Shown here one piece after another: positions 12,571 to 50,104 of a DNA stretch of 64,000 bases. The notes beneath the pieces were generated by a model that was given only the letters and a program-made list of their open reading frames with translations, had not been told where the DNA came from and made no database searches. Both the position numbers and the translations under genes were made by a program. The stretch's first letter is position 1; the number at the start of each line of letters is the position of its first letter. Source of the DNA: Betaproteobacteria bacterium (GTDB lineage: Bacteria > Pseudomonadota > Gammaproteobacteria > Burkholderiales > Ga0077523); contig JANXYG010000125.1 of NCBI GenBank assembly GCA_025350245.1, positions 90-64,089 on the forward strand, written 5' to 3'.

Positions 12571-12858
12571 GAACGAAGGTGTACTCGGAAGCGAAGGGGC
12601 CGCATCCGCAGGGTTCCCCGAGGATGCTGCGCCCCCTCAAGGGGGAAGGCGAAGCGCAGCGCAGCCTGGGGGTGGACGTCACCTCGGGCAACATCGGCCG
12701 GGTTCCCCGAGGCATGCAGCGCCCCCTCGAGGGGGAAGGCACAGCGCAGCGATGCTGAACGAAGGGAACCGCTGAAGCGAAGGGGCAGCGCCCACAGGAT
12801 CCCCCGCGGACGCTACGCCCCCTTGGGGGGAAGGCGCAGCACAGCGCAGCCTGGGGGG
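12571..12858. repeat. three tandem copies (one 5' and 3' truncated) of a ~100-nt G5/C5-rich intergenic repeat, inside the his operon
   Basis: Units lie at 12571-12672, 12700-12752 (partial) and 12757-12858. The core is GGTTCCCCGAGG..GCGCCCCCTNNAGGGGGAAGGCGNAGCGCAGCGCAGCCTGGGGG. The same unit recurs at 41857, 51714 (reverse) and 61011. Confidence 0.85.
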
Positions 12859-46387: not shown

Positions 46388-46491
46388 CTTCGGGCGAACT
46401 TGCGAGAGCCACGATCGAGGGAGCGTTCGAATGTAGCACACGGTCCGCGGCAGTCACGGTGGCGGGATGCCCCTGCGCTATACTCGAAAAC

Positions 46492-47503
46492 ATGCACGCG
46501 GAACCGGAGATCGCTCGCGCAAACAGCCTTGGCAAGCTCACCCCCAGCGCCGCGATTTCGGTCGGGCGGCGGGTGCTCGACATCGAATCGCGCGCCGTCG
46601 CGATGCTGTCGCAACGGCTCGACCACAGCTTCGCCCGTGCGCTCGAGCTGCTGCTGGCATGCCGTGGCCGCGTGGTGGTGAGCGGCATCGGCAAGTCCGG
46701 CCATATCGCGGGCAAGATCGCCTCCACCCTCGCCAGCACCGGGACCCCGGCGTTCTTCATGCATCCCGCCGAGGCCAGTCACGGCGACCTCGGCATGATC
46801 ACTGCCGACGACGTGATGATCGCCCTCTCCAACTCCGGCGAAAGCAGCGAACTGCTCACCATCGTGCCGCTGGTGCGGCGGCGCGGCGGTGATCGCCATG
46901 ACCGGCAATGCCGGGTCGACCCTCGCGCGCGCGGCCGATGTTCACCTCGATGCCGGCGTGAGCGAGGAAGCCTGTCCGCTGGGTCTCGCCCCCACCGCCA
47001 GTACCACGGCGGCACTGGCGCTCGGCGATGCGCTCGCGGTCGCCGCGCTGGAGGCGCGCGGCTTCGGTGCTGAGGATTTTGCGCGCTCTCACCCCGGTGG
47101 AAACCTGGGCCGCAAACTGCTGACCCACGTCAGCGACGTCATGCGCGTGGGTGCCGCGATCCCGCAGGTGCGGGTCGATACCCCGGTCAGCGATGCCCTG
47201 GTCGAAATCTCCTGCAAAGGGCTGGGCATGAGTGCCGTATCGAGCGCGAGCGGCGTGCTGGCCGGCGTGCTTACCGACGGCGATCTGCGCCGCGCCATCG
47301 GCCGCAACGTCGACTTGCGCACGGCCGTGGTCGCCGACATCATGTCCTGCAATCCACGCACCATCGGTCCGGGCCGGCTTGCGGTCGAGGCGGTCGCGGA
47401 AATGGAACGTCATCGCATCAACGGGCTGCTGGTGGTCGATGCCGCGGGCGCTGTGGTCGGCGCGCTCAACATGCACGACCTGTTCGGCGCCAAGGTGATC
47501 TGA
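46492..47503 (+). pseudogene. kdsD: arabinose-5-phosphate isomerase KdsD, interrupted by a +1 frame change near 46876-46890
   Basis: The SIS domain (VVSGIGKSGHIAGKIASTLASTGTPAFFMHPAEASHGDLG) is in one frame. The continuation (VIAMTGN...ACPLGLAPTASTTA..., two CBS domains) is in the next frame. The junction lies in the run GCGGCGGCGCGGCGG. Confidence 0.8.
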
Positions 47504-47561: not shown

Positions 47562-48113
47562 ATGACCGATCAAGGTCACGAAGCGCGCATCGAGTCGGCA
47601 CTGGCCAAGGCGCGGCGGGTGCGCATCGCGGTCTTCGACATCGACGGCGTGATGACCGATGGCACGCTGTTTCTCGATGATCAGGGCAACGAGAGCAAGG
47701 GCTTCAACTCGCTCGACGGCCACGGCCTGCGCATGCTCGCCCACACCGGCATCACGCTCGCCATCATCACCGGCCGCCGGTCGCGCTGTGTCGAATTGCG
47801 GGCCATGAATCTCGGCATCGCGCACGTGCACCAGGGCGTGGACGACAAGCTCGCGAGCTTCGACGAACTGCTGGGCCCGCTTGGTCTCGAGCGCGCCGAC
47901 GCCGCCTACATGGGCGACGACGTGGTCGATCTGCCGGTGATGCGCCGCTGCGGGCTTGCCGTGTCGGTGCCAGCCGCGCCGGAAATCGTGCGCCGGCATG
48001 CCGACATCGTCACCACGCGCAGCGCCGGACACGGCGCCGTGCGTGAGGCCTGCGAGTTCATCATGGCGGCGCAGGGCTCCCTCGACACCGAGCTCGAGCG
48101 CTACCTCCGATGA
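47562..48113 (+). CDS. kdsC: KDO 8-phosphate phosphatase
   Basis: It has the HAD motifs FDIDGVMTDG and GDDVVDLPVM. The start is ATG 47562. Confidence 0.9.
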   Translation: MTDQGHEARIESALAKARRVRIAVFDIDGVMTDGTLFLDDQGNESKGFNSLDGHGLRMLAHTGITLAIITGRRSRCVELRAMNLGIAHVHQGVDDKLASFDELLGPLGLERADAAYMGDDVVDLPVMRRCGLAVSVPAAPEIVRRHADIVTTRSAGHGAVREACEFIMAAQGSLDTELERYLR

Positions 48114-48724
48114 CGGACCGGCTGTTCAAGTGGTATCCGGTGCTGTTCCTGCTGGCACTCGCCGCGCTGACCCTCTGGCTCGACCAGAAGGTCCAGCCGC
48201 CGCAACCGGCACGCGACGGCAGCGCCCGGCACGACCCCGACTTCTACATCGACGACTTCGTGGCCCAGCGCATGAATCCGGATGGCACCCGCCGCTATGC
48301 CCTGAAGGGGCGCAAGCTGGTGCACTACCCGGACGACAGCAGCACCCAGGTGCAGACGCCGTCCTTCACCCACTTCGAAGCCGGTGCCGCGCCGGTGCTG
48401 GTCACCGCCAATCGCGCAGTCGTGTCGCGCAATGGCGAGAACGTCTATTTCGTCGGCGACGTGCACATCGATCGCGCCGCCTTCGCCGACCAGCAGGCGC
48501 TGGCCCTGCGCACCGAGCTGCTGCATGTGATTCCCGATCGCGACCTGGCCAAGACCGACAAGGCCGTGTTCATGACCCACGGCACCTCGACCGTGCGTTC
48601 GGAGGGCATGGAGTTCGACAACCGCGCCCGAACAGTGAAGCTTCTTTCGAAGGTCAAGGTGAACTATGCGTCCCCCGTCCGCTATGCATCCCCCGTCCGT
48701 CTGCCCACCACCCGCCGCAAATAG
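48110..48724 (+). CDS. lptC: LPS export protein LptC
   Basis: The 204-aa product has an N-terminal TM anchor (VLFLLALAALTLWL). It sits between kdsC and lptA with an ATGA overlap. Confidence 0.8.
   Translation: MTDRLFKWYPVLFLLALAALTLWLDQKVQPPQPARDGSARHDPDFYIDDFVAQRMNPDGTRRYALKGRKLVHYPDDSSTQVQTPSFTHFEAGAAPVLVTANRAVVSRNGENVYFVGDVHIDRAAFADQQALALRTELLHVIPDRDLAKTDKAVFMTHGTSTVRSEGMEFDNRARTVKLLSKVKVNYASPVRYASPVRLPTTRRK
48664..48699. repeat. 18-bp tandem duplication at the lptC/lptA junction
   Basis: CTATGCGTCCCCCGTCCG is followed by CTATGCATCCCCCGTCCG (one mismatch). The duplication encodes YASPVR twice in LptC and supplies two in-frame ATGs for lptA. Confidence 0.9.
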
Positions 48725-49337: not shown

Positions 49338-50104
49338 AGGCACCGGCGGACCAAGCCTCGGCCACGCGGCTGGCGCTGCCATCGAGCGAACTGCGGGCGA
49401 TGGGCCTCAAGAAACGCTACAAGGCGCGTACCGTGGTCAAGGATGTATCGCTCGACGTGAAGAGCGGCGAGGTGGTCGGCCTGCTCGGCCCGAACGGTGC
49501 CGGCAAGACCACCTGTTTCTACATGATCGTGGGCCTGGTGCCGGTGGACGACGGTGAAATCTTCCTCGACGCCGAGAATCTGTCGTCGATGCCGATCCAC
49601 AAACGCGCCCGCCGCGGCTTGGCCTACCTGCCGCAGGAGCCCTCGATCTTCCGCAAGCTGACCGTGGCCGAGAACGTGCGCGCGGTGCTGGAACTGAACG
49701 GCCTCAAGGAATCCGAAATCGCGACGAAACTGGATGCATTGCTGGTCGATCTGCACGTCGCGCATCTCAAGAACAGCCCCGCCATCAGCCTGTCCGGCGG
49801 GGAGCGGCGCCGGGTCGAGATCGCGCGGGCACTGGCGGGCGATCCGCGCTTCATCCTGCTCGACGAGCCGTTTGCCGGTGTCGACCCGATCGCCGTCATC
49901 GAGATCCAGCGGATCATTCGTTTTCTCAAGGAGCGGGGCATCGGCGTGTTGATCACCGACCACAATGTGAGAGAGACGCTCGGCATTTGCGACCGGGCCT
50001 ACATCATCAACGATGGGTCGGTACTTGCCTGCGGCCATCCAGAGGAAATTGTCTATAATGAAGCGGTGCGAAAAGTCTATCTCGGCGAGAATTTCCGCCT
50101 GTGA
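49334..50104 (+). CDS. lptB: LPS export ABC ATPase LptB
   Basis: It has Walker [10 protein letters not shown], signature LSGGERRR and Walker [13 protein letters not shown]. Confidence 0.9.

What the first reader, a model, noticed from the sequence alone, without database searches (positions are those of the whole stretch)
46861..46900. kdsD reading frame is broken by a +1 shift in a G/C-rich run
The SIS-domain half (46492 onward: ...GIGKSGHIAGKIASTLASTGTPAFFMHPAEASHGDLG...SGESSELLTIVPLVRRRGG) runs into nonsense (DRHDRQC...). The expected continuation (VIAMTGNAGSTLARAADVHL...ACPLGLAPTASTTA...SHPGG..., two CBS domains) is in the +1 frame starting near 46889. The two ORFs in the track (46459-47073 and 46889-47503) overlap by 185 nt.

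One inserted base, or two deleted bases, within CGGCGGCGCGGCGGTG (46876-46891) explains the pattern. KdsD supplies arabinose-5-phosphate for KDO/LPS synthesis. A true pseudogene would therefore need a GutQ-like paralogue. Otherwise this is a sequencing or assembly error, or less likely a split or recoded enzyme.
Basis: seen in the sequence. Interest (0 to 1): 0.45.

Follow-up and report, generated by a model that had tools for sequence, protein, structure and literature searches.

The report
kdsD broken by 5-base deletion
The only gene in this draft environmental genome for the first step of making the outer-membrane sugar Kdo is split by a five-base deletion in a short repeat, but every other public assembly of the same bacterium has the gene whole, so this is most likely a flaw or one-off variant of this assembly and is ordinary.

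Summary
kdsD (window 46492-47503) changes reading frame inside the G/C run at 46876-46891, giving two ORFs that overlap by 185 nt.

The lesion is not one inserted or two deleted bases. The window lacks exactly five bases, one unit of a GCGGC repeat (3.2 copies when intact, 2.2 here). It also carries a C>T change 4 nt upstream of the repeat, at 46874.

Eighteen independently assembled contigs of the same species cover the site, at 97.3-99.8% identity. Seven of them are strain-identical. All carry the intact 338-aa gene and lack the C>T change. Outside the joint the two halves match the intact protein residue for residue, apart from that change (Ala128Val).

The 95.8%-complete genome has no second arabinose-5-phosphate isomerase. 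kdsA, kdsB, kdsC and lptC are intact.

The closest records point to the glacier-fed-stream MAG project. Its pipeline merges MEGAHIT contigs with Flye after six PCR cycles, which is a plausible source of such an error.

My odds:
- artefact or non-representative variant: about 0.7
- real, very recent knockout: about 0.2
- recoding or a working split enzyme: under 0.05

This scan noted broken A5P-isomerase genes before on other DNA (one judged real decay, two judged artefacts), but not this one.

The parts
46492..46887 (+). kdsD 5' part in its original frame (codons 1-132: N-terminal region and first two thirds of the SIS domain, including the equivalents of E. coli K59, H88 and E111)
   Evidence: Identical to residues 1-132 of intact P0001 except A128V. 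NF008141 positions 14-122 and PF01380 positions 2-81. Aligned without gaps to 2XHZ.
46874..46874 (+). C>T substitution (GCG Ala128 to GTG Val), seen only in this contig, 4 nt upstream of the repeat
   Evidence: All 18 conspecific contigs read GCG. In L018, L019 and L140 it is the only mismatch. In L017 it is one of only 2 mismatches in 4.5 kb. Val occurs at this position in other species of the genus.
46878..46888 (+). Site of the 5-nt deletion. GCGGC repeat with 2.2 units here against 3.2 units in intact alleles. The exact deleted unit cannot be placed within the repeat.
   Evidence: Single 5-nt gap against G001, against L017-L030 and against L138-L141. Period-5 run computed.
46888..47073 (+). 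Out-of-frame tail of the upstream ORF (61 nonsense codons, GDRHDRQC..., then TGA)
   Evidence: No family match beyond residue 133 of the ORF.
46880..47503 (+). kdsD 3' part in the shifted frame (codons 132-338: last SIS strands with the equivalent of E152, then the CBS pair; stop at 47501-47503). Possible internal starts are GTG 46889 and ATG 46898.
   Evidence: Identical to residues 132-338 of P0001. NF008141 positions 126-328 and PF00571. The NCBI-derived 201-aa fragment P0128 starts at ATG 46898 and comes from a 66,674-nt contig, the length of this window's contig C43.
47523..48113 (+). kdsC (Kdo-8-phosphate phosphatase), intact, next gene in the operon. Conspecific gene calls start at 47562.
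   Evidence: NF007019 1.4e-54, TIGR01670 above cut-off. Identical 183-aa product in 10 other contigs.
48110..48724 (+). lptC, intact. lptA, lptB, rpoN and ptsN follow, as in conspecific contigs.
   Evidence: TIGR04409 1.4e-47. Gene order in L020-L028.

Best explanation
This is the ordinary kdsD gene (arabinose-5-phosphate isomerase, SIS domain plus CBS pair) at the head of the kdsD-kdsC-lptC-lptA-lptB-rpoN cluster. In this one contig it has lost one 5-nt unit of a short GCGGC tandem repeat, which shifts the frame in the middle of the SIS domain. Loss of a repeat unit is the signature of strand slippage. I infer that the slippage, or an equivalent consensus error, happened outside the living population's main lineage: during library PCR, during contig merging or consensus building in the MAG pipeline, or in a rare DNA molecule. 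The bacterium most likely carries the intact 338-aa gene seen in every other assembly of it. Shown here: the 5-nt deletion, that only this contig has it, the lack of a paralogue, and the intact rest of the pathway. Inferred: that the deletion is an artefact or a non-representative variant.
For: (1) Eighteen contigs from independent assemblies cover the site at 97.3-99.8% identity. They come from Logan assemblies of at least 8 SRA runs and from ENA assemblies made with two naming schemes. All have the 5-nt-longer intact allele.
(2) Seven of these are strain-identical. L018, L019 and L140 differ from the window only by the deletion and the SNP 4 nt upstream of the repeat. L017 has one further mismatch in 4.5 kb. 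Two differences clustered in a G/C-rich repeat, in otherwise identical DNA, are typical of a local error.
(3) Neither half shows further decay: the match to P0001 is 100% apart from A128V.
(4) kdsD is single-copy. The only other SIS hits in the genome are GlmS and a GmhA-like ORF, and the CBS hits lie in a 153-aa ORF and a 495-aa open frame with no SIS match.
(5) kdsA, kdsB, kdsC and lptC are intact.
(6) A single API is essential in P. aeruginosa. The E. coli kdsD gutQ double mutant is non-viable (PMC10448790).
(7) The nearest public MAGs are glacier-fed-stream MAGs. That project used 6 PCR cycles and an iterative MEGAHIT plus Flye assembly (PMC12684718). Plain MEGAHIT (k141) and Logan assemblies give the intact gene.
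Against: Short-read assemblers rarely invent 5-nt deletions. No k-mer of 19 nt or more at the site is repeated elsewhere in the genome, so a graph short-cut is not explained. The rest of the window (41.9-57.5 kb) shows no other suspicious indel, so this is not a generally error-ridden assembly. That the MAG comes from the Flye-merging pipeline is an inference from its neighbours. Records of the window's own genome are withheld from the look-ups, so other copies of the broken allele could be hidden (notes).
Confidence: 0.7

Rival explanations
1. A real, very recent loss-of-function mutation. Replication slippage in the GCGGC repeat deleted one unit in the strain that dominated the MAG's sample. 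Those cells live with little or no Kdo, or obtain arabinose-5-phosphate from an unrecognised enzyme.
For: The lesion is a classic in-vivo slippage product. The window's haplotype has the perfect repeat, whereas some conspecifics have an imperfect one reading CGT. The accompanying SNP gives Val, a residue used at this position by other species of the genus, so it looks like a real polymorphism. kdsD loss is tolerated in some bacteria: a spontaneous kdsD frameshift arose in F. tularensis, which has a single API (PMC5362203; PMC10448790). The same genome holds other broken genes (scan notes).
Against: No other assembly of the strain or species has it: 0 of 18 contigs. There is no paralogue or CBS-fused substitute. 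There is no secondary decay in kdsD or in kdsA, kdsB, kdsC or lptC. A knockout of the sole API should be strongly counter-selected in a free-living Gram-negative bacterium.
Confidence: 0.22
2. The gene still works despite the shift. Either ribosomes change frame at the G/C run (+1 or -2), or the two pieces (residues 1-132 plus a junk tail, and a fragment restarted at GTG 46889 or ATG 46898) assemble into an active split enzyme.
For: Both halves are perfectly preserved. GGTGATC at 46888-46894 is complementary to the 3' end of 16S rRNA and lies 3 nt before ATG 46898 (read from the sequence; the complementarity is from my own knowledge). A gene caller did call the 201-aa piece.
Against: The site is not conserved: conspecific and congeneric genes are uninterrupted, so any recoding signal would be days old in evolutionary terms. 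There is no slippery heptamer, no homopolymer and no stop-codon-stimulated shift site. The putative ribosome-binding sequence is simply the Gly-Val-Ile codons, present in the intact alleles too. The cut lies inside the SIS fold and separates the equivalents of K59, H88 and E111 from E152 (residue roles are from my memory of the E. coli KdsD literature). The upstream piece also drags 61 nonsense residues.
Confidence: 0.03
3. A phase-variable on/off switch of LPS core synthesis, worked by gain and loss of GCGGC units.
For: The frame change is caused by a change in the copy number of a 5-nt repeat, as in known contingency loci.
Against: There are only 3.2 units, far fewer than in known pentanucleotide contingency loci (my knowledge). 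Eighteen of 18 other contigs have the same 'on' length and none has 4 units. Other species of the genus do not keep the repeat.
Confidence: 0.03

Closest known systems
KdsD (YrbH) arabinose-5-phosphate isomerase of E. coli, at the head of the yrbG-kdsD-kdsC-lptC-lptA-lptB locus (SIS-domain structure 2XHZ)
   Same: Same domain order (SIS plus two CBS). Gapless alignment to 2XHZ over residues 24-192 of the intact allele (E 1.3e-58). Same neighbours kdsC, lptC, lptA, lptB and rpoN. Best NCBIfam model for both halves.
   Different: In this contig the ORF is interrupted in the SIS domain by a 5-nt deletion. The upstream neighbour is a KefB/KefC-type K+ efflux gene on the other strand. Neither half reaches the KdsD equivalog cut-off of 505 bits on its own (147 and 227 bits). 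No intact protein was scored against that model here.
Spontaneous kdsD frameshift in Francisella tularensis Schu S4 CipR (PMC5362203)
   Same: A small indel frameshifts the only API gene of a Gram-negative bacterium.
   Different: That case was a 1-nt insertion in a laboratory-passaged isolate, confirmed by resequencing, with measured LPS and growth phenotypes. Here the lesion is known from one MAG contig only.
GutQ / KpsF paralogues (E. coli, B. pseudomallei, N. meningitidis)
   Same: Same family (TIGR00393). They would be the expected back-up if kdsD were truly dead.
   Different: No such paralogue was found in this genome. The assembly is 95.8% complete, so absence is not proven.

Membership tests
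KdsD/KpsF/GutQ arabinose-5-phosphate isomerase (TIGR00393; NF008141) | N-terminal SIS (sugar isomerase) domain | tested here: met
   PF01380 positions 2-81 lie in the upstream frame and positions 83-131 in the downstream frame. Together they make one full SIS domain, split by the frame change.
KdsD/KpsF/GutQ arabinose-5-phosphate isomerase (TIGR00393; NF008141) | C-terminal CBS pair | tested here: met
   The PF00571 hit and NF008141/TIGR00393 coverage run to the last profile positions. PDB CBS-domain structures 3K2V, 3FNA and 4O9K match residues 188-337 of the intact allele.
KdsD/KpsF/GutQ arabinose-5-phosphate isomerase (TIGR00393; NF008141) | Whole-protein score above the curated cut-off from one uninterrupted ORF | tested here: not met
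   In the window the two pieces score 109 and 208 bits against TIGR00393 (cut-off 203.7), and 147 and 227 bits against NF008141 (cut-off 505). The gene is interrupted. The intact conspecific allele P0001 is one 338-aa ORF.
KdsD/KpsF/GutQ arabinose-5-phosphate isomerase (TIGR00393; NF008141) | Active-site residues equivalent to E. coli K59, H88, E111 and E152 | tested here: met
   From the gapless alignment to 2XHZ (offset 9), the equivalents are K68, H97, E120 and E161, and all are present. The first three fall in the upstream piece and E161 in the downstream piece. The residue roles are recalled from the E. coli KdsD literature and were not tested here.
KdsD/KpsF/GutQ arabinose-5-phosphate isomerase (TIGR00393; NF008141) | Kdo/LPS-transport operon context (this distinguishes KdsD from GutQ and KpsF) | tested here: met
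   kdsC and lptC lie directly downstream. lptA, lptB, rpoN and ptsN follow in conspecific contigs.
KdsD/KpsF/GutQ arabinose-5-phosphate isomerase (TIGR00393; NF008141) | A5P isomerase activity | not testable with these tools
   Needs an enzyme assay, or complementation of an E. coli kdsD gutQ double mutant.
Programmed ribosomal frameshift / recoded gene | The frameshift site is conserved among orthologues and has a recognisable shift signal | tested here: not met
   All 18 conspecific contigs and 10 of the 11 genus-relative loci have a single open ORF here. For the eleventh, L012, the check picked another frame, so its gene was not read. No slippery heptamer or homopolymer is present at 46860-46900.
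Phase-variable contingency locus (simple-sequence repeat switch) | A long repeat tract whose unit number varies among strains or samples | tested here: not met
   The tract has only 3.2 units. All 18 other contigs have the same tract length, and in several the repeat is imperfect.

The most novel reading that the evidence does not exclude
The deletion is real and dominant in the sampled population. A free-living glacier-stream betaproteobacterium would then have knocked out its only arabinose-5-phosphate isomerase by repeat slippage. It would survive either without Kdo or through an unrecognised route to arabinose-5-phosphate, possibly switching the gene back on by regaining the repeat unit.
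Probability: 0.07. Interest if true: 0.5.

Novelty: not a real feature. Interest (0 to 1): 0.1.

Why it matters
If it is an artefact, the main value is practical. The deposited MAG mis-annotates an essential LPS gene as fragments (a 201-aa piece is in the public protein collection). Metabolic reconstructions from this MAG would wrongly score Kdo synthesis as incomplete. It also flags that MAGs from pipelines that merge contigs with a long-read assembler may carry sporadic multi-base indels in G/C-rich repeats. Only if the reads confirmed the deletion as the majority allele would it become biologically interesting: loss of the sole A5P isomerase in a free-living Gram-negative bacterium.

Tried and rejected
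- JGI metagenome pattern scans. Both found nothing. The first pattern wrongly demanded the window's GTG codon. The corrected second pattern also gave no hit, so JGI contigs add nothing.
- Exact look-ups of the two broken products. Neither is on record, but the window's own records are withheld from these tools, so this is not evidence of absence.
- Search for a replacement enzyme. There is no second SIS-CBS protein, no SIS-only API candidate beyond GlmS and a GmhA-like ORF, and no CBS-fused aldolase of the kind this scan noted elsewhere. The C64 hit is a stand-alone 153-aa CBS pair.
- Graph short-cut as the cause. No k-mer of 19 nt or more from the site recurs in the genome.
- Genome-wide frameshift rate. 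I ran tblastn with ORFs from 400 kb of relative G007 against the genome. Most candidates were antisense or alternative-frame noise of a 65.5% G+C genome. Only one other convincing broken gene emerged among roughly 180 orthologous ORFs. The assembly is therefore not riddled with errors, and the test cannot decide between artefact and mutation.
- A single complex event (quasi-palindrome or template switch) to explain both the SNP and the deletion. Inspection showed no convincing template.

Full report
OBSERVATION

The + strand carries two ORFs, 46459-47073 and 46889-47503. They lie in different frames and overlap by 185 nt.
- The first ORF matches the KdsD equivalog model NF008141 over positions 14-122 and the SIS domain over positions 2-81.
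- The second matches NF008141 positions 126-328, SIS positions 83-131 and a CBS domain.

EXACT LESION

The closest species-level relative held (G001, 84% nt identity) aligns across the site with a single clean 5-nt gap in the window. Ten of eleven genus-relative loci show one uninterrupted ORF reading ...IVPL[A/V][R/K]RRGA[A/K/R][V/L]I..TG... For the eleventh, L012, the longest-ORF check picked another frame, so its gene was not read.

A protein search with the downstream half found P0001. This is a 338-aa protein, 100% identical to the query, heading a 90% cluster of 11 members:
- nine members are intact 338-aa proteins;
- one is a 301-aa protein that begins at an internal Met;
- one is a 201-aa fragment from an NCBI contig of 66,674 nt. 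That is exactly the length of contig C43, which holds this window. The public record of this MAG therefore carries the same break.

Contigs encoding P0001 were fetched (L017-L019, Logan assemblies of three SRA runs). They are 99.7-99.8% identical to the window over 2.1-4.5 kb. L018 and L019 differ from the window only by a 5-nt gap and one mismatch at 46874. L017 has one further mismatch, at 49339.

The intact allele reads CTG GCG CGG CGG CGC GGC GCG GCG GTG ATC. The window reads CTGGTGCGGCGGCGCGGCGGTGATC. The intact allele holds 3.2 units of GCGGC and the window holds 2.2 units, at 46878-46888. The upstream frame equals P0001 residues 1-132 (with A128V). The downstream frame equals residues 132-338, so five bases are read in both frames.

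HOW WIDESPREAD

I fetched contigs for three further cluster members and for the identical downstream KdsC protein. In all, 18 distinct contigs cover the site:
- L017-L030 and L138-L141;
- 97.3-99.8% identical to the window;
- from Logan assemblies of at least eight SRA runs and from ENA assemblies named k141_... and BUSI22-1_...

Every one has the intact length and GCG at codon 128. Seven are strain-identical (at least 99.67%). None has the deletion.

Across window 41.9-57.5 kb there are only two other kinds of indel against these contigs. One set is intergenic, at 41.86-41.92 kb. The other is an in-frame 18-nt duplication at 48668 that is polymorphic. The contig is otherwise clean.

IS THERE A BACK-UP?

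The genome has 156 contigs and is 95.8% complete.
- The KpsF/GutQ model hits only the two kdsD halves plus two CBS-only regions.
- One CBS-only region is a stand-alone 153-aa CBS-pair protein. The other lies in a 495-aa open frame that has no SIS match.
- SIS-domain hits are GlmS, the kdsD halves and one short GmhA-like ORF.
- P0001 finds nothing else.
- kdsA and kdsB are full-length and open. waaA runs off a contig edge. kdsC and lptC are intact.

So there is no visible substitute, and no decay in the rest of the pathway.

WHAT THE LITERATURE SAYS

- E. coli tolerates loss of kdsD only because of gutQ.
- P. aeruginosa, with a single API, needs it for growth. F. tularensis, also with a single API, does not.
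- In B. pseudomallei a kdsD kpsF double mutant could not be made (PMC10448790).
- A spontaneous kdsD frameshift arose in a laboratory-passaged F. tularensis strain. Inactivating kdsD in that species causes growth and LPS defects (PMC5362203).

A real knockout is thus possible but costly.

LIKELY ORIGIN

The nearest MAG in the species collection is a 'GFS' (glacier-fed stream) betaproteobacterial MAG. Another NCBI MAG contig is 99.9% identical to the window, and some ENA assemblies bear the name of a glacier-stream study. The Vanishing Glaciers MAG project reports about 50 ng of input DNA, six PCR cycles, Illumina NovaSeq sequencing and an iterative assembly 'using MEGAHIT and Flye' (PMC12684718).

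If this MAG comes from that pipeline (an inference), then merging short-read contigs with a long-read assembler's consensus step could remove a repeat unit and add a nearby substitution. Polymerase slippage in library PCR could also remove a unit. Plain MEGAHIT and Logan assemblies give the intact gene.

WEIGHING

For an artefact or non-representative variant:
- only this contig has the lesion (0 of 18 others);
- the two differences cluster in otherwise near-identical DNA;
- there is no secondary decay;
- the gene is single-copy and normally indispensable;
- the rest of the pathway is intact.

For a real mutation:
- the lesion is a textbook slippage product in a perfect repeat;
- Val128 is an acceptable residue in the genus;
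- short-read assemblers rarely create 5-nt deletions, and no repeated k-mer explains one;
- the genome has other broken genes (scan notes).

A sample of 400 kb of ORFs from relative G007 found only one other convincing frameshifted gene among about 180 orthologues. The assembly is therefore neither very dirty nor perfectly clean.

My odds are artefact or one-off variant about 0.7, and a real recent knockout about 0.2.

Recoding and a working split enzyme are each very unlikely. The break is not conserved, and there is no slippery site or homopolymer. The downstream start context is simply the Gly-Val-Ile-Ala-Met codons, also present in intact alleles. The cut separates the equivalents of catalytic K59, H88 and E111 from E152 (residue roles from memory). 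Phase variation is unlikely with 3.2 units and no length variation in 18 contigs.

NOT DONE

Two JGI pattern scans found nothing. Look-ups for the broken products are uninformative, because the window's own records are withheld from those tools.

VERDICT

The gene is an ordinary kdsD, and the break is private to this MAG contig. It is most probably not a biological feature of the organism. Interest is low.

Noticed in passing
window 48668-48685 (lptC/lptA overlap): The 18-nt tandem duplication noted earlier by the scan is polymorphic within the species. ENA contig L022 (99.1% identical) lacks it, while the other conspecific contigs aligned across it (L017, L020, L024) showed no gap there. It is in frame and looks like a real slippage polymorphism.
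   Followed up: partly
L144 2320-3521 (G000:C92:37819-39020): An OYE-family alkene / N-ethylmaleimide reductase gene is split. Against a 92%-identical ENA contig (L145, intact 353-aa P0131) the MAG lacks 7 nt (a frameshift). About 50 nt further on it lacks 12 nt, which removes four residues just ahead of the MHAGR motif. The ENA contig also carries a second pirin gene upstream that the alignment did not find in the MAG. This is either a decaying pseudogene or another clustered assembly lesion.
   Followed up: partly
L021 6250-6355, L027 6337-6442, L028 6560-6749 (between kdsC and lptC; window about 48110): In some conspecific strains kdsC and lptC do not overlap but are separated by a spacer of about 106 nt (L021, L027) or about 190 nt (L028). 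The L028 spacer is 83% similar to window 12586-12757 on the opposite strand. This suggests a small dispersed repeat element that is present or absent at this junction.
   Followed up: no
window 46665-46770 (5' third of kdsD): Four Logan contigs from different runs all begin inside the 5' third of kdsD, at window 46665, 46712, 46770 and 46770. Another NCBI MAG contig begins at 47316. This hints at a recurrent assembly break, from strain variation or a coverage dip, just upstream of the G/C-rich site.
   Followed up: no
L003 1420-1881, minus strand (G000:C64): A stand-alone 153-aa CBS-pair protein gave the third-best hit to the KpsF/GutQ model. It has no catalytic domain attached.
   Followed up: yes
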